This document shows positions 12,310 through 37,486 of a stretch of 64,000 nt of DNA, piece after piece; position 1 is the stretch's first letter, and each line of letters opens with the position of its first letter. The position numbers were made by a program, and so were the translations under genes. The stretch covers positions 96,596,001-96,660,000 of the forward strand of contig NC_042998.1 in assembly GCF_006345805.1 (NCBI RefSeq), read 5' to 3'. The stretch comes from Octopus sinensis (lineage: Eukaryota). The notes beneath the pieces were generated by a model. That model was not told the origin of the DNA, made no database searches, and worked only from the letters and a program-made list of their open reading frames with translations.

Positions 12310-12452
12310 TACGACAGGCTTTTTTCCGTTTCTGTCTACCACCTACCAACTCCACTCAAAAGGCTTTGGTCGGCCCGAGGCTAGAGTAGAAGACACTTGC
12401 CCAAGGTGTCATGTAGGGAGACGGAACCATGTGGTTGGGAAGCAAGCTTCTT
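12310..12452 (-). mobile_element. SINE family A, downstream part, split by the 12453-14456 insertion
   Basis: ggctttggtcggcccgaggct...gacacttgcccaaggtg...ggttgggaagcaagcttctt. The SINE continues at 14457-14496. Confidence 0.85.
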
Positions 12453-14456
12453 TATTTCATTAAATTTGCCACAAGGGCAGCACACAGAGAGAAGCTTCAG
12501 GGCTAGACAGAGACATTAATGGGATGAATGATGATGATATATGGATGATAAGGATGGGAGAAGATGAAAAGCGCCCGCCGACTTTCGCTTCTCTAAAACA
12601 TTGTTCTTTTTTCTTTTTTCTTTTTTAAAGCACAATGAGGCAATAAACCTCTTACACAGTTCAAAATTAAAAATAAAACACAAACACGAGGCAATAATCC
12701 TCTCACTTTTTACATTTTTAGTCTCTTTTTGAGGTAATAATAACCTCTTCAATTTTTCCGCCCGGCCAGGCTCCTCGCTTCATCGAAGCACCTGGTTCCG
12801 TCCGAACTTAAAGGTTTCAACATAAATCTGAAGGAGTCCTTCGGGAAGGTGTTCGTTATCTTCCATAGATCGTTCTCCCATATGACCTCCGCAGCCACCT
12901 GCGAAGGCCACTCAAGGTCCTCCGTGTAGGACAGAAGCCCCTCCCACCGGCACTTCCTTTCAATTTTTTTGATTTCATTTTGCAAGGTTCCTCCCTTGTG
13001 GAAGAGGACCAAAAATTCATCCTCCAGCAGCACACCCGCCAAAGGAGAATCGGGACACGCCGGCAATGTCCCATTTTTTTCTCTTTTATTTTTCCCTTGA
13101 GCTGCGGGAGGGTAGTGTTCCCTTGCTGTGTCCAGCAGGTCCTCCTTTTCTCCCGCAGCTCTCGGTTTCTTCGGTGGGCAACCATTGTTGCCCACCTTTC
13201 GCTTTCGTTTTTTCGAGGAGGTTTCCACCTCCTCGACATCCTCCTCCTCTCCCTCCATTGAAGGAGCAGAGAGTCGTTCCTCTGTTAACTGCTCCAGGAT
13301 CCTATTTTGGTCCTTGGGGCAGTTTTTCTTGATTTGGCCGGTCTTCAGGCACAGGTGACACTTGGGGGGAGGCGTCCCTCCAGCATCACCGGATACCTAG
13401 ACCCGGCCATCCTCAAAAACTCTGGGAAAACCAGACTTTCGGCTGATTGGGTCCATAGGGTCAACAGAGCTTTTGACCCCTCCCAATCAGCTGCAGGCAA
13501 AAGTTTTACGTTGAGCAGCTTGTTATTGCTACCACCCAGACCCCGGCGGATAGAGTCCTCTATCCACTCGGGCTCAATTCCGGGTGGCAAGCCGCAAACC
13601 CAAGCCCTCGTTAACTTTTTTCCACAATAACTGGGAAGAAACATTATTTCCTTCCCCTCGAGGGGCGGGCTTGCAAAATCGCAAGCTTCTTTGGGGGAGT
13701 CAAATAGCAACCAGACCGTTGCAAATTTGACTCCCCGTGAAATAAATTTAATAGCTGGCATGTATTCTGCCAGCTCTTTCAAAATTGTGGCTTTCGGGAA
13801 GACGGTTATGGTATCGCGCAATTTTGAATAAGTCCTCAACAGCACCGTCTTCCTTTCGAGCTCTTTTAGCCATGATTTGGGAGGTGTTAATTCCCACACT
13901 AATATTTCCTTTGCCATTTTTTTAAAATAAAAAGTTCAAATATAGTTCGTCAATGCGTTTTCAAATAAATAAAGATACACAAGAAAAGAAAGCAGACACA
14001 ACAGAAGGGAAAAAAAATAAAAATAACAGTTCAAATAAAGTTCTTTTTTTTTAATAAATGATAGCTGTGAAAAGAGAGTTCAAATCCATGCAAAGAAATA
14101 AATTTTCGGTCGAAAGGTACTCCTGGCCAATTCTTTTAATCCATGTGGGCACAAAAATTTTCAAATACAATTTCTCACAATTATGTGAGACAACACACAC
14201 GTCTCCACCGCAAAGCAGACAAAAAGCTTCGAATCCAGCAAGGACTCCCTGCCTGTTCAAAAAATATAAAACCAACAGGCAACAAATCCTACCGGACTCA
14301 AAAAGCAAAAAGTCTTACCTTACAGCTTCTTTCAGTTCAACTTTCGCCAGCTGCATACCAGCGTGACGACTTTAACAGGTGCGTGAAGAACACTGTTTTT
14401 GTTCTTTTTTTCTTTTTAGGACGGAGCTCAGAGCGAGGCGTCCTCTCAGTTCAACC
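12453..14456 (-). mobile_element. Full-length ORF1-only Tx1/L1-related non-autonomous retroelement (HAL1-like)
   Basis: Perfect 15-bp TSD ggaagcaagcttctt at 12438-12452 and 14457-14471. It has a ~540-bp 5' UTR, one ORF1-like frame and a ~300-bp 3' UTR ending like the Tx1 LINE at 32101. There is no ORF2. Confidence 0.8.
12749..13917 (-). pseudogene. Tx1-type ORF1 (gag-like) protein of ~389 aa with one frameshift in the G6 run at 13364-13369
   Basis: Adding one base joins ORFs 13345-13917 and 12749-13258 via EGRLPPKCHLCLKTGQIKKNC, a zinc knuckle with H>Q. PSYCGKKLTRAWVCGLPPGIEPEWI aligns with PVYLNKRVTKVQIKNIPFDVETQWL of the Tx1 ORF1 near 37050. It also has an acidic stretch and the basic motif KKRKRK. 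Confidence 0.75.
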
Positions 14457-14496
14457 GGAAGCAAGCTTCTTACCACACTGTTACGCCTGCGCCTAT
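14457..14496 (-). mobile_element. SINE family A head, remainder of the split copy
   Basis: ggaagcaagcttcttaccacactgttacgcctgcgcctat is the reverse complement of the SINE 5' end. Confidence 0.8.
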
Positions 14497-14976: not shown

Positions 14977-15953
14977 CAAAGTGTGCGATGGGTAAATTGT
15001 CGCCATTTTATACTTTTAATTTTGTGTATGCGCATTGCTTGTTTTGGATTTTGTTGACTACACACTATAATAGGGTTAGTTGGGCATCGTCTGTGAGAAG
15101 AACAGCATCATGACGCAATTCACTCTGCCAGAAATTTGGAAACGACATGCTGTACTGCTTAGCATTCGCGGCAGAAGCTCCAATACGAACATTTCAGAAT
15201 GTTTGGGTGTTAATCTGAGGACAGTGCAGAGGATTTGGAAAGAGTTGGATGAATCTAATGATAATTACGAAGGTACAGCAGCTCGGAAAACTCACTCCGA
15301 TCGACCTGAAATTGTTGGGGAGGTCCAGGCCATAATTGGCAACGATCCCTCCAAGACAATCAGGTCGATCGCCAGAGACATGGGAATGTCTGAATTTCTT
15401 ATCTGGCAGGCAGTGCATGAAGACATTCGGTATTCGTCATACAAGATGACAAAGGGACAATTTTTATCCCTCGCCACCAAGGACAAGGCGAAAGACCGCG
15501 CTACGAAGCTTTTGAACAAACTCAAGCATCCTCGCCAACTGAACATGGTTTGGTTTTTATCAGACGAGAAAAATTTCTCCCAAGATCAGATGGTTAACAC
15601 ACAGAACAACCGTTGGCTTGCCGTGTGTCCCCAAAACATGTACCGAGAGTGATAAAAATCAAACATCCAGTCAACATCACGGTGTTTGGAGTGACCTCTA
15701 GTGATGGCGACGTTATGCCTCCATTCATCTTCCCACACAGCCTCAGGCTCTACACGAAGCTTACATCAAGTGCCTGGAGGAGATAGTGCTGCCCTGGATC
15801 AAGAGGGTAGCTGCTGGAAGACTCTATGTCTAGCAACAGGACTCTGCACCAAGCCACACAAGCAGAAGAACCCAGTCATGGCTGTCAGACAATTTCTGCG
15901 ATCACATCTGGCGGCCCTAACATCTGGCTACACTTTATTCACCGCACTCAGGA
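14977..15953 (+). mobile_element. Tc1/mariner-superfamily transposon (maT/DD37D-like), internally deleted
   Basis: Imperfect ~28-bp TIRs caaagtgtgcgatgggtaaattgtcgcc and ggctacactttattcaccgcactcagga, with TA flanks and a transposase remnant inside. Confidence 0.8.
15110..15925 (+). pseudogene. Transposase pseudogene (HTH plus first two catalytic Asp, C-terminus deleted)
   Basis: LGVNLRTVQRI, KTIRSIARDMG, WFLSDEKNF, NTQNNRWLA, KHPVNITVFG, QQDSAPSHTS. It has frameshifts and a stop, and ends before the WPPNSPD-type motif. Confidence 0.85.

Positions 15954-32022: not shown

Positions 32023-32099
<77 letters not shown>
32023..32099. repeat. (GATA)n microsatellite flanking the Tx1 3' end
   Basis: Direct repeat. 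Confidence 0.95.
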
Positions 32100-32489
32100 T
32101 GTTTCTTTATTAGCCACACAGGGCTGCACACAGATAGAACAAATTACAAGGTAGAGCTTTTCTTTTGAAGGTTTAAAAAAAAAAAAAAAAAAAAAGGAAG
32201 GGGGAGTTTCGATGAAAAGGGATCGTAAAAGGAGAGAAAGAGGACAAAAAAAGGGGAAGTTAAAAAAAAAAAAAGGGGGAGAGGAAAAAAAAGTTGATCA
32301 ATAGGGATCGTTATCACAGAAATGTCAATATGAAGTGTAAAGGGGAGGACAGGTGAGGTTACCCGTGGAAAGAAAAGCCTACGGAAAAGACCACGGTAAC
32401 CTCGGTCAATGAAGTCACATTTTATATTTCTTTTTTTTTTTTTTTTTTTTTTTTGCAAATAAGCAACTCTCTGTTTTCGATTTCTGGGT

Positions 32490-35400
32490 TCATAGGACTA
32501 TGCTCAAGGTGGCTTCGTCATTCATACGTGCCATTCTTGCTACATTCACCCATTTTTTTTTAAAACATTCGCTAGACAAAACTTGCCTCTCTACTCTCAC
32601 TTTCCTTTTCAAGTGGTACTTGAAGAAGTTGATGAGAGATTGACCAGAGAGGAAAGTGTTTGTCTCCAATCCTTTCAGACGCGTCCACCAGATACATTCT
32701 TTCGCCATAGCCACAAGGATGATGAAAATAGCTCTTCCTTCCCGTTTGAAGGAAGGAAGGAGGCGTGACAATATTGACGATAGACTCAGCTGATAAACCG
32801 ACTCGTCCCATACGTGACAGCAGTTGTTCGACATAAGCCCACAGGTCGGAAATTGTTGGACACTGAACGAGTGCGTGCAAAACGGTTTCGTCGCTCTGAC
32901 CGCATCTCGGGCAGGTCGGCCCCGTGTTTCTCGAGCCGTGTCTGTAGAGCTTATCCCGAACGGGTAGCGCTTCTCGGTAGCACTGCCAGGCCAGGGATCT
33001 CTGGAAGTTGTCCATGGGCCCTGGCCCGAAAGTCGTCCCGAACAGGCGGGTCAGGTACTCCTCGTCGACGTCCAGGTTCGCCCCGAGCTCGTCGTCGTAC
33101 CTCCCCTCCACTAAACCCCTATAGAATGCTTTGGTAGTGTTGAAGTCGCTCAAGGGCGACCCGGGACGGCATAGTTGCTTGGGAGGAACGCGACACTCGC
33201 TATGCCATTCGTCCTTCCTCGGCCTCTTTTTGATCCACGACTGCAGTTCGGTCATGGAGACGAACTGCGGGAAAGCCTGCCTGACAAGCATTGACCACAC
33301 CTGTCACCGTCGTCTACGTAGAGCCGGAAATGTCGCAGTCTCAGCGGGTGTCTGCGCATCATCAACCACGGTATGCCCAGCCCTCATTTCAGCGGGTGTT
33401 GACAGCAAATGGATCGCCTGACCATTGAGACGCATCCCTTCCACAGGAAGCGAAAGAGAATGCGATCTAGTTTGGTGATGGTAGGGTCGGGACAAGGTAC
33501 GACGGTCAGGCGGTAGTAGATGACGGACGCGATGTACGTGTTCGCCACATCCGCTCGACCTTTTAGGGACAGTTTCCTCTCGGCCCATTGCCGGGCGAGA
33601 GTGACCACCCTACTCGTTATCTCGTTCCAGTTCTTCTCCACTTGGAGGTCCGACCGAACCAGACCCCGAGCAACTCAACCGGGCCGTCGGTCCAGCGTCC
33701 CACGACGGAGGCGCTGGTGGACGGCATGGGCTTGCTTCTCCAGGTGCCTAGTCGCAAGCCCACTGACTTTCCCGGTTGATTTTCGCTCCTGTCACCGCTT
33801 CGTAGTTTTTCAGTGTCTCGCCGACCAGCTCGATGTGCTCGTGGCTAGACACTATGACGGTGACGTCGTCCGCGTATGCAGACACGCTCGTCCCGCATCC
33901 CAATTCTCGCGGGATGCCCCCTTAGAGTCGCCAGCTTCCGCAGTAGTGGCTCAAGAGTCAATACGTATAGAAGCGCCGAGAGGGGGCATCCCTGACGGAC
34001 CGAAGGCAATGTCGAAAGGTCTCGATAGATGTCCATTTACGCGAATTACCGAACGGATGCCTCTGTACAAGGCAGCTATCAGCCGCGGAAGACGGGACCG
34101 AAACCAGCCGCTCTCAGGACTGCCTCCAAGTATCGATGGTCTACCCTATCAAAGGCTTCGATTGATCAAGTTGATCAGGGCCCCACCCATGCCAGGTTCG
34201 TTAACTACCTGTCTATGATGTAGCGCATCAGATGGAGGTTGTCATGGATGGTCCGGCCTGGCACGGCGCATGTTTGCGCCTTGTCGACCAGTTTCTCGAT
34301 GACAAGCGCCAACCTCTTGGCTAGCACCTTGGCCAAAATTTTCAAGTCTGCATTAAGCAGAGTGATGGGCCTAAAGTTATCTATACGTTTCCTTGTTTAG
34401 ATCTTTCTTCAGCAGTGTTACGGCTCCTCGGCTCACAAAACCAGGAATGCTCCCGTTTTGCTGCCAGTTGCAGTACACCGCCGCCAAGAGATCTCCAAAC
34501 AAGTCTGGCATACAATTGTAAAGCTCGTAGGGTAGACCATCCAAACCCGGTGATTTGTCCCTCGAGCATTCTGCCATCGCTTCCCGCACTTCCGCCGCCG
34601 TGATGGCACCTTCGCAGCACCCTGCTTTCTTGTCGAGAGTCGTGGTAGGCTATGTGTAGGTAGGCACTGAAGTCCACCCTACGTTCTTGCCCTCCACTCG
34701 TTCCGAACAGTCGGGCAAAATGCTGCTGAAAGGCCTCACACATTTTACTTGGCTCGAGCAATTCGCGCCCCTGTTCATCTACCAGTGACGAATGGTGGCT
34801 TTGTTGCCCTGTTGCGCCTCTGCCACCCGGGCCTCTCTCGCGGCTCCAACACCTTCGTTCCTTAGAGCACGCATCCTAGCTCTGACAGCACATCCTTCGT
34901 GTTTGGCGTTGAAGTGTTGGTCGAGGGCCAACCTCGCCGCCAAAACGTCGGATGCGATGCCGCTTCTAATTGCCTTTCTAGCTTCTTAACTAGCTCACCC
35001 TCTACTCTATTTCTATCTATGGCTAGTGCTTTGCTGTACCTAATCGCTTCTGCTTTACTGCTCTCTTGAGGGCAAAAACCATTTGTTGTTGATGATGGCT
35101 CCCGTCAAAGCCCTCTTTACTAGTGTGCTAATCCGGTCTCTGAAAACTTGTCTCGATGGGAAAGACGCGTTTAGTTTCCAGTATCCGGGACCCTGCCTAA
35201 GTGTCTTACCTAAGTCTAGCGTACATGTCACAAGTTTGTGATCGTGTAGCTGACTATGTGGAATTGTGGACATCCTATGCTATCTCTATCTACTGTCCTA
35301 CACAGTATCCTATCTAGATACGATCTCGACGACCCGATGCGGTTGCTCCAGTCCACGTTGGCGCATTCGGGTGGTCTAGTCGGAACCTGTCAGACAGTTG

Positions 35401-35911
35401 AAAGCGTCTGAGCAGGTCTCTGAGGCATTTGCATCCCCGTCTATTCCTATCTCTACCCACGTAGTTACATGCGTGTCCAAGGTAGCATTCCAATCCCCCA
35501 CTAAGAGTAAGGACGAGACGTTCCCAAGAAAACTTCTAGACGTTGAAAGAAATCCGCCCGACCTGTTAAGGGCGGTGAGTAAACTGATACGAGTCGAAAA
35601 GCGCACCATTGCTGCCGTCGACATCCAGGACGACCAGTCTACCCTCGGGTCTACGAATATTGTCCTTACATTGAGATCCAGACTCTTGTGAAAAAGTACC
35701 GCGGTGCCACTACCGCCCATTCTCGGCAGACAGGGGGGAAAATAAATCTTGAACTGTCCGCCAAACATGGTCTTTAGGGCCCGCGGATTGTGGAGTCTGG
35801 TCTCGCTTATGGCTATGATTTTAACTTATGTGACTTTATGTCATTTAAGAGGTACCCTTGTTTCCAAGGGGACCCCAAGCCACGCGCATTTACACAACCA
35901 ATCTTGATCAT
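32490..35911 (-). pseudogene. Tx1-like ORF2 (APE endonuclease, reverse transcriptase, C-terminal CCHC), frameshifted
   Basis: MIKIGCVNARGL, LVGDWNA, DHKLV, GPGYWKLN, KSPGLDGLPYELY, RPITLLNADLKILAK, SVRQGCPLSALLY, AYADD, KLSLKGRA, CPRCGQSDETVLHALVQC. Confidence 0.92.
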
Positions 35912-35942
35912 AGTTCTAATGAATTAGAATACAGAGGGTTAC

Positions 35943-37400
35943 TTACTGCTCGAAAGTTTTTGCTTTCTCCTCCGTTGGTTTGTCCTCGAGAAGATCCCAG
36001 TACAGTTTCTTTGTGAGATATTTTTGGCATTTACCAACCGCACTGGGGAAAATGCCTTTGAGTGTGTGGTGCAGACTTTTGGAGATGTGTAATATTTTGA
36101 TGTGGTCTGGTGGTGTTGTGTATGGGTGGTTGTTTGTTTTTATGTCATCTTCGTTATGTTTGTTTTTTTTTGATTGATGTATTCCATCAAATTGTGTTTT
36201 TGGTGTCTATGGCTGTAAGCATGTTTGCTGTATATGTTTTGTGGTGTTGGTGTGGCTGTTGTTTGCGTTGGGTTTTGAAAGTCTTCGGGAGATGTATTTC
36301 CCCCTGCTTTGTTCGTGTTTGCATTTGGTTTGGTTGTGTTTCTGCTCTTTATTTTCCTTCTTTTTGTAGCTATTTGCCATTCCTCACTGGTTTCGTCTTC
36401 CGACGAAATTTCTGAGGAATCAGAAGGGGGTAGGGGTATGTTGTTGGCTTCTATGTATGTCTGTGTAAGTGGTTGTGTTGTTTTCGTTGTTGTTGGTTGT
36501 TGAGTGTTTTGTGTGTTGAGTGCGGTATAAGGGATGGGGATCAGTTTGTGTGTGTTTTCTTTGTTTTTCTGTTCCTTTGGGTTTTGCTGTTGATGGTGGT
36601 GTGGTATTTTTCAGGTGTCGAGTGGTTTTTGGTTGATGACGGATAGCTTGGTGTGCTTCTCTTGTCGTCTTCTGTGTTGATGGTGGTGTGGGTAGTAGAG
36701 CTTTTTTTTTCCGGAGTGCTTGGTTGTGGTAGTGGTTGTTGTTGTTGCTCTTGGTGTGCATTGGTTGGGCACGTCTTTTTCAAGTGTGTTTCGCTTCCAC
36801 ACAAATAGCAGCGTGGTCGCCGCCCTCTACCACTATATAGGTTTGTAGCCTCCTGGCAGTTCTATAGCGGTGGTATCTTCTCTCTTGCTGCTTCATCCAA
36901 TTAAGCAGGAATTCGATTGATTTGCCCACATAGTCTTTCTCTCTCTAGAACCGCGACTTCCAGGATGTTTGTCTCTGACATTGTCTCTGACATTTCAAAG
37001 CAGATGGCAGAGACCAACCATTGTGTTTCGACATCAAATGGTATGTTTTTTATTTGGACTTTCGTGACCCTTTTGTTTAAATAGACTGGTTATCATTACC
37101 AAAGTCGTCCGAATGCAGCTCCAATGTGGAAAAACGTTTTGCTAAACTTTCGTTGAGGAAACGTACTTGACTGTACCAAATTTGTTTCCCCACTGATATA
37201 TTCCTTGGAGTCCCATACAGGACGAAGGCATTTATATCGATTTTTTCCTGCGGTGCATTTTCTGTTCTTCTTGTTTTTTTGTTTATTACTTTATAAATTA
37301 TTGTTTTTTTTTGTGTGTTTTCCACGATGTGTTGTGGAATATGAAGGTGCAATTTGTCTCCTTCTTTGGAGAAGAGTGCCTTTGTGCGGTTTATCTCTTG
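35943..37400 (-). pseudogene. Tx1-like ORF1 with zinc knuckle and low-complexity T/K/P/Q-rich region, frameshifted
   Basis: KRVTKVQIKNIPFDVETQWLVSAIC and RRPRCYLCGSETHLKKTC (CX2CX4HX4C). It ends WDLLEDKPTEEKAKTFEQ* just upstream of ORF2. Confidence 0.8.
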
Positions 37401-37404
37401 TGTG

Positions 37405-37486
<82 letters not shown>
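37405..37486. repeat. (GATA)n microsatellite flanking the Tx1 5' end
   Basis: Direct repeat. Confidence 0.95.

What the first reader, a model, noticed from the sequence alone, without database searches (positions are those of the whole stretch)
12453..14456. Full-length ORF1-only Tx1-related retroelement ('half-LINE') with a perfect 15-bp TSD
Seen: a 2004-bp insert splits a SINE head and is bounded by an exact 15-bp duplication ending TTCTT|A, resembling an L1-type endonuclease nick site. It has a defined 5' end (GGTTGAAC..., with hairpin aggacg...cgtcct), one ~389-aa ORF1-like frame, and then runs straight into a 3' UTR with a Tx1-like tail. No EN or RT sequence is present. Established: ORF1-only L1 derivatives (HAL1) are known from mammals and some other lineages. 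Inference: this is an independently derived, trans-mobilised HAL1-like family that retrotransposed in this form. Its ORF1 is highly diverged from the Tx1 ORF1 in this window yet nearly intact, which hints at selection on the protein.
Basis: partly seen in the sequence, partly recalled or inferred. Interest (0 to 1): 0.75.

Follow-up and report, generated by a model that had tools for sequence, protein, structure and literature searches.

The report
SINE-homing half-LINE keeps its target variant
This 2-kb insert is one copy of an old family of jumping genes, in a likely octopus genome, that carries only an RNA-binding gene, lands at one exact spot in the rarer and older version of a common short repeat, and likely moves with enzymes borrowed from full-length relatives that use the same spot.

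Summary
The 2004-bp element (minus strand) has an exact 15-bp duplication and no ORF2. It is a family: 21 of the 30 best loci are full length. The duplication is the same at every copy, because all sit at one base of a SINE head. Of 31 exact tail junctions genome-wide, 30 are in the A-type SINE variant and none in the T-type, which has 12 times more empty sites. ORF1 (two predicted RRMs plus a CCHC knuckle) was under purifying selection across a 59-element ORF1-only clade (dN/dS about 0.2). The window copy itself is frameshifted, not one frame. EN-RT LINEs use the same site: a young family in T-type SINEs, and an older, decayed one in A-type SINEs. No A-type helper as young as this family was found. 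This scan has found the SINE-targeting system and its half-LINEs before on other DNA of this genome. Added here: selection, variant fidelity and relative ages. ORF1-only LINEs and target-specific Tx1s are each known; I did not find the combination in 9 answered paper searches.

The parts
12453..14456 (-). ORF1-only non-LTR element, full length (family F0)
   Evidence: 21 of 30 best loci full length with the same ends
14457..14471 (-). 5' copy of the 15-bp target (A-type SINE variant)
   Evidence: same site before 24 of 24 readable 5' ends
12438..12452 (-). 3' copy of the 15-bp target; follows the tail directly, no poly(A)
   Evidence: target-like 15-mer after 26 of 27 readable 3' ends
13918..14456 (-). 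5' UTR, 539 nt; weak hairpin at about 14416-14444
   Evidence: hairpin z -0.61
12749..13917 (-). ORF1, broken by a frameshift near 13372; 397 aa in intact copy L004
13369..13887 (-). two predicted RRM-fold domains (aa 11-101 and 102-183 of the L004 protein)
   Evidence: AF2 model, pLDDT mostly 70-86 per block here; tandem-RRM proteins top in Foldseek; La RRM Z 9.1, rmsd 2.8, 84 aligned and Mip6 RRM3 Z 8.3, rmsd 2.3, 76 aligned
13319..13351 (-). single CCHC zinc knuckle, downstream of the frameshift
   Evidence: C189, H194, C199 invariant in alignment A1; Pfam zf-CCHC E 2e-5 in the partner ORF1, 0.011 in a sister half-LINE, 0.74 to a related knuckle family in L004
12453..12748 (-). 3' UTR, 296 nt
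12467..12479 (-). tail stem-loop (4 bp, 5-nt loop) shared with ORF2-bearing LINEs
   Evidence: 97 of 110 tails anchored, 91-94% paired per position, outer pairs change on both sides
14472..14493 (-). 5' piece of the host SINE head
12310..12437 (-). rest of the host SINE head and start of its body

Best explanation
The insert is a dead copy of a long-lived ORF1-only retroelement lineage that sits at one fixed base in the head of an abundant SINE, and that likely moves by borrowing endonuclease and reverse transcriptase from sister L1/Tx1-group LINEs that target the same base. Shown: family status, fixed ends, fixed site, restriction to the older A-type SINE variant, purifying selection on the RRM-RRM-CCHC part of ORF1, a shared tail stem-loop, and ORF2-bearing elements at the same site. 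Inferred steps: a source copy is transcribed from about its 5' target copy through its 3' target copy. Its own ORF1 coats the RNA, which would explain selection on ORF1 without ORF2. A helper ORF2 binds the tail hairpin and nicks the SINE, and reverse transcription starts at the nick. There is no poly(A), so the read-through target copy likely pairs with the nicked strand, adding to the endonuclease's own specificity. Each insertion leaves a usable site at its front, which gives mixed tandem arrays.
For: Full length in 21 of 30 loci, 92-96% identical to most family members. Host SINE flanks 76% identical between copies against 90% for insert ends, correlation -0.10 over 230 pairs, so separate insertions into older SINEs. 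5'-truncated inserts with the same 3' junction, 126-402 nt (L083, L084, L076), as expected of target-primed reverse transcription. dN/dS 0.20 and 0.18 at dS 0.6-1.0 and >1 among 59 ORF1-only elements; internal 0.23 against terminal 0.48, p 3e-13; F0 alone 0.29 against 0.75, p 0.004. This ORF1 type forms its own clade (100% support), apart from all ORF1s of ORF2-bearing elements among 60 sequences. Intact 5.4-kb LINE (Pfam EN, RT, zf-RVT; human L1 ORF2 best in PDB, E 3e-65) at the same base, T-type in 20 of 20 further copies and 12 earlier ones. Decayed ORF2-bearing family C at A-type sites: 13 of 13 distinct 5' ends. Tail covariation. No mismatch shared by both target copies in 21 F0-type insertions, while empty A-type sites carry 1.5-2.4 mismatches per 15.
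Against: No helper was shown. The A-type ORF2 family sampled is older than F0 (8% against 3% non-CpG divergence, n=6 and 21), and the young intact family uses the other variant. The ORF1 search scored 150 of 11,274 candidates and I read the surroundings of 20 of its distant hits, so an ORF2-bearing carrier of this ORF1 is not excluded. The C-terminal part of ORF1 shows no internal-terminal contrast (0.71 against 0.67). Tail covariation counts copies, not independent events. One family copy (L030) ends at a non-target sequence. Tx1 rather than L1 membership was not tested by a tree with named references.
Confidence: 0.85

Rival explanations
1. Target variant is set only by the helper's endonuclease. 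F0 was moved by a low-copy or since-lost A-type LINE, and half-LINE clades changed variant when helpers turned over.
For: An ORF2-bearing A-type family exists and begins with the same first 7 bases as F0. Ages run from A-type (SINE 15%, family C 8%) to T-type (SINE 5% and 2%, family A 1-2%). One active locus can drive a passenger family (general knowledge). PMC4494074 states that target choice is mainly set by the endonuclease.
Against: F0 (3%) and a second A-type half-LINE family (2.3%, n=6) are younger than all family C copies read (best pair over more than 800 nt 91%). A near-perfect 15-bp requirement is long for this enzyme class (own knowledge).
Confidence: 0.5
2. The unit that moved is a composite SINE carrying the 2-kb insert, so the fixed site and fixed duplication are inherited from one ancestral event.
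For: Same site and same 15-mer in every copy.
Against: Flanks are far more diverged than inserts and uncorrelated with them. Other families, full LINEs, truncated copies and tandem stacks use the same base. Some insertions show a mismatch shared by both target copies, as true duplications do (L105, L153, L164).
Confidence: 0.03
3. The 2-kb forms are recurrent internal deletions of an autonomous LINE, and the selection signal was inherited from that LINE.
For: Internally deleted LINE copies do occur at this site (L038, L097 second element, L146). Sampling of ORF1 hits was partial.
Against: Constant family lengths; all 59 tree members lack ORF2 across dS above 1; ORF1 only 20-27% identical to ORF1s of ORF2-bearing elements.
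Confidence: 0.07
4. ORF1 is kept because it serves the host or the helper LINE, as with a domesticated gene or HeT-A-type cooperation, not because it helps its own RNA.
For: PMC5786205 says such proteins likely multimerise with the autonomous counterpart's proteins; a gene model exists for one member (P0001).
Against: Copies decay after insertion; 1 of 30 loci has a whole frame; no single conserved locus stands out. P0001 may come from the same species or genome and is not independent.
Confidence: 0.08

Closest known systems
HAL1 (half-L1) of mammals; HeT-A and Ag-Sponge (PMC5753468 and PMC5786205, passages read; Bao and Jurka 2010 not held)
   Same: Non-autonomous LINE that encodes only ORF1 and moves as such; arose more than once (a second ORF1-only lineage sits at the same site).
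   Different: ORF1 is two RRMs plus CCHC (type I of PMC4120745, passages), not the coiled coil-RRM-CTD of mammalian L1; no poly(A); one fixed site inside a SINE; shared tail hairpin. The passages list L1, Jockey and CR1 as sources of such elements, not Tx1.
Target-specific Tx1 families: Tx1 in Tx1D, Tx1-Mar with SINEU, Keno, Kibi, Koshi (PMC4494074, passages and section 15)
   Same: EN-RT LINEs that insert into another repeat at a preferred site, with a passenger using the same site and tandem copies around a duplication.
   Different: The target is a SINE head, the passenger encodes a protein under selection, and families split between two variants of the target. The targets named in what I read are DNA transposons, LTR elements, snRNA and 5S genes, satellites and microsatellites.
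R1Bm and SART1Bm RNA-target annealing (PMC7265360, passages)
   Same: Target-like sequence at the RNA 3' end anneals to the nicked strand and raises accuracy.
   Different: There it tunes precision at one target; here it would carry a heritable choice between target variants in an element with no enzyme. Untested here.

Membership tests
ORF1-present non-autonomous LINE (HAL1-like kind) | encodes ORF1 and no ORF2 | tested here: met
ORF1-present non-autonomous LINE (HAL1-like kind) | multi-copy family with fixed ends, moved in this form | tested here: met
   21 of 30 loci full length; independent host sites
ORF1-present non-autonomous LINE (HAL1-like kind) | 5' and 3' parts trace to one autonomous parent | tested here: inconclusive
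   tail and first bases shared, but no parent with a close ORF1 found
ORF1-present non-autonomous LINE (HAL1-like kind) | mobilised in trans | not testable with these tools
   inferred from shared site and tail
HAL1 proper (mammalian L1 derivative) | L1-type ORF1 (coiled coil, one RRM, CTD; Pfam transposase 22) | tested here: not met
   no such Pfam hit at E up to 10; model shows two RRM folds and a knuckle
target-specific Tx1 clade (helper LINEs) | ORF2 with APE endonuclease and RT of the L1/Tx1 group | tested here: met
target-specific Tx1 clade (helper LINEs) | RT groups with named Tx1 rather than L1 families | not tested
target-specific Tx1 clade (helper LINEs) | one target type in over 20% of flanks (criterion of PMC4494074) | tested here: met
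   26 of 27 3' ends for F0; 20 of 20 for family A
tRNA-derived SINE (host repeat) | tRNA-like head | tested here: inconclusive
   ARAGORN 0 genes in 13 loci; no tRNA match in Rfam; A-box and B-box likeness on either side of the site is recalled, from no call

The most novel reading that the evidence does not exclude
An enzyme-less element carries its own address. The target copy read into its RNA decides which SINE variant it enters, whichever helper supplies ORF2, so target preference is inherited through the last landing site. This would explain why F0 kept to the rare A-type variant after the A-type LINEs sampled had decayed, and why whole half-LINE clades flipped to the T-type variant at least twice. 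It fits the 5' target copy being partly written by the element in T-type families (9 discordant pairs, all in one direction, against 3 shared).
Probability: 0.3. Interest if true: 0.85.

Novelty: new variant of a known kind. Interest (0 to 1): 0.6.

Why it matters
It gives a natural system with many dated copies for two open questions: why a LINE's ORF1 is needed on its own RNA when ORF2 can be borrowed, and how much of non-LTR target specificity lies in the RNA rather than the endonuclease. Two target variants that differ at three bases, each with its own families, make the second question testable by a simple swap, which matters for site-specific insertion tools. It also shows that automated annotation can hide large ORF1-only radiations as uncharacterised genes or LINE fragments.

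Tried and rejected
Different TSDs per copy: rejected. Window Tx1-like LINE as helper: rejected; it lies in TATC repeats and its ORF1 is distant. Family B LINEs: 6 of 6 begin after TC repeats, not helpers by site. 5' hairpin as a signal: no better than shuffles. Element-written 5' target copy in F0 itself: inconclusive (10 mismatches in the 3' copy only, 7 in the 5' copy only, 4 of these at the junction C). Terminal branch length did not separate A-type from T-type copies (both 0.026); ages come, with small n and subfamily structure as caveats. Young A-type helper: three searches found only decayed copies; one search scored 40 of 8,400 candidates and missed a known relative, so this is not absence. 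Expression: no RNA holder listed on record; laid contigs of four runs under four organism labels, which cover parts of the element, but none spans it, so no claim is made on expression. C-terminal domain: low-confidence model (pLDDT 62), best Z 6.0, no specific match. Protein Atlas gave no result. First tail script anchored only 4 of 110 tails and was rewritten. Rows dropped: from the 59-element tree, segmental duplicates, tandem or nested units and elements under 62% identity or 170 codons; L024/L025/L180 and L185-187 are duplicates. Paper searches answered: (one search was on ORF1 types; the other 9 bear on prior description); none listed a SINE-targeting ORF1-only element. Repbase, Dfam, the Zenodo library and supplement of PMC13282606, and Bao and Jurka 2010 were not seen and may hold this family.

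Full report
Observation. The window holds a 2004-bp insert at 12453-14456 between exact 15-bp repeats at 12438-12452 and 14457-14471. It reads on the minus strand: 539-nt 5' UTR, ORF1 from 13917 to 12749, 296-nt 3' UTR, no poly(A). ORF1 is split into two frames. Against the intact copy L004 (397 aa) it has a 2-nt frameshift near 13372 and three in-frame gaps. An intact ORF2 query gives no hit in it. The 5' hairpin is no better than chance.

It is a family. A DNA search of the window's genome (2.72 Gb) gave 55 matches from 40 of 2,695 candidates. Of the 30 best loci, 21 (the window copy and one duplicated pair included) run end to end, at 1.9-2.1 kb apart from one of 2.4 kb; 24 of 24 readable 5' ends and 26 of 27 readable 3' ends abut the same 15-mer in the same SINE head. 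The repeats are therefore not varied TSDs but one target. The SINE flanks are 76% identical between copies against 90% for the inserts' last 300 nt, with no correlation (230 pairs; 77% against 94-95%). Short 5'-truncated inserts share the 3' junction. These are separate insertions into older SINEs, not a composite that moved whole.

It belongs to a larger radiation. Exact 5' junctions number 60 and one class of 3' junction 23. The N-terminal half of ORF1 found 11,274 candidates, 150 scored, many at 68-75% identity with long open frames. Reading 80 further loci showed ORF1-only elements of about 1.4, 1.7-1.8, 2.0, 2.2 and 2.45 kb at the same base, often stacked tail to head. In a protein tree of 60 ORF1 domains the finding's type forms one clade (100% support, long stem) with no ORF2-bearing member; the 1.4-1.8 kb elements form a second ORF1-only group nested among ORF1s of full LINEs.

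Protein and selection. AlphaFold on a 6-sequence alignment gives two domains at aa 11-183 with fair confidence and a disordered middle. Both domains match RRMs, and a CCHC knuckle follows: type I ORF1 in the scheme given in PMC4120745 (passages). Among 59 ORF1-only elements, dN/dS over codons 1-205 falls from 0.56 between close copies to 0.20 and 0.18 at dS above 0.6 and 1.0. By parsimony, internal branches give 0.23 and terminal 0.48; within F0, 0.29 and 0.75. Source lineages kept a working ORF1 for a long time without ORF2, while inserted copies decay; only 1 of the 30 F0 loci has a whole frame. The C-terminal domain shows no such contrast and no specific fold match. The one database homologue (P0001, labelled Octopus sinensis, 66%) is not counted as independent.

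Helpers. A 5.4-kb LINE with endonuclease, RT and zinc finger (human L1 ORF2 closest in PDB) sits at the same base with a 15-bp repeat. An older, decayed ORF2-bearing family C sits there too. All end in the same tail. Its 4-bp stem is 91-94% paired in 97 of 110 tails, with double changes at the outer pairs (84 Watson-Crick against at most 61 in 2,000 shuffles; relatedness not controlled). The Tx1-like LINE in the window and family B lie in TATC and TC repeats instead.

Two target variants. The SINE has an A-type and a T-type 15-mer, differing at three bases in the commonest forms. Exact empty sites: 4,505 A-type and 55,098 T-type. With the variant base left free, the F0 tail joins A in 30 of 31 cases, G in 1, T in none. 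Family A is T-type in 20 of 20 and family C A-type in 13 of 13 5' ends. Non-CpG divergence, medians: A-type SINE 14.7% (n=13), family C 8.1% (6), TTAC SINE 5.3% (35), F0 3.0% (21), a 2.44-kb A-type half-LINE 2.3% (6), TAAC SINE 2.1% (13), family A 0.8-1.7% (10). So T-type sites likely existed when F0 moved, and F0 avoided them. F0 also used near-perfect sites: no mismatch is shared by both target copies in 21 insertions, though empty A-type sites average 1.5-2.4 per 15. On the tree, two T-type clades are nested among A-type ones, and single cross-overs exist (L114, L091).

Mechanism. The shown parts fit target-primed reverse transcription by a borrowed ORF2 that reads the tail hairpin. With no poly(A) and exact 3' ends, the likely partner for the nicked strand is the target copy read through at the RNA's 3' end; such annealing is reported for SART1Bm and R1Bm (PMC7265360, passages). 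At the 5' end, T-type families show the front target copy ending in the family's own form where the back copy has the other form in 9 cases, never the reverse, against 3 shared changes; part of the duplication is then written by the element. For F0 this test was inconclusive. Whether the variant is chosen by the helper's endonuclease or by the passenger's RNA is open. I put the helper-only reading at about one half and the RNA-address reading at 0.3, since no A-type helper as young as F0 turned up in three incomplete searches.

Known relatives and novelty. ORF1-only LINEs are known from the L1, Jockey and CR1 clades (PMC5753468, PMC5786205; passages). Tx1 families that target other repeats, with passengers at the same site, are known (PMC4494074; passages and section 15). 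A 2026 repeat annotation of Octopus vulgaris lists 13 recently active L1-Tx1 families and does not describe targets or ORF1-only forms (PMC13282606; parts 1 and 2 of 3 read, supplement and library not seen). My searches listed no SINE-targeting half-LINE; Repbase and Dfam could not be checked. Earlier notes of this scan describe the same system on other DNA of this genome; the leads on RNA tags and on the rewritten front site came from them and were partly tested here. Verdict: a real new variant of two known kinds combined, interest 0.6.

Noticed in passing
window 32080-37420, minus strand: Decayed full-length L1/Tx1-type LINE flanked on both sides by TATC repeats; Pfam zf-RVT hit. A microsatellite-targeting relative with a similar tail.
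   Followed up: partly
L119-L128: LINE family B (72-74% RT identity to family A) starts after TC repeats in 6 of 6 copies read, like Kibi by target.
   Followed up: partly
L035, L039, L048, L065, L070, L089, L114, L145: Second ORF1-only lineage (1.4-1.8 kb) at the same SINE base, with an ORF1 closer to those of full LINEs: an independent origin.
   Followed up: partly
L131, L205-L210, L212: 8 of 13 family C 5' ends are preceded by another element's tail, so the front target copy is the one reused; array order could date families.
   Followed up: no
L094, L100, L107, L108: Four half-LINEs share a front target copy that departs from the back copy after about 9 bases, so the true duplication may be shorter than 15 bp.
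   Followed up: partly
L114:861-2290 (minus-strand numbering): A half-LINE of a normally A-type family sits in front of a family A LINE at a T-type site, with an A-type ending on its front target copy.
   Followed up: no
window 15080-15652, plus strand: Frame resembling the N-terminal part of a Tc1/mariner transposase; weak HTH hits below Pfam cut-offs.
   Followed up: no
L057: Two half-LINE 5' parts face each other 2.7 kb apart in inverted orientation.
   Followed up: no
L077, L082, L088, L107 SINE ends: The host SINE ends in a short stem followed by an A-rich run resembling the LINE tail end; homology not tested here.
   Followed up: no
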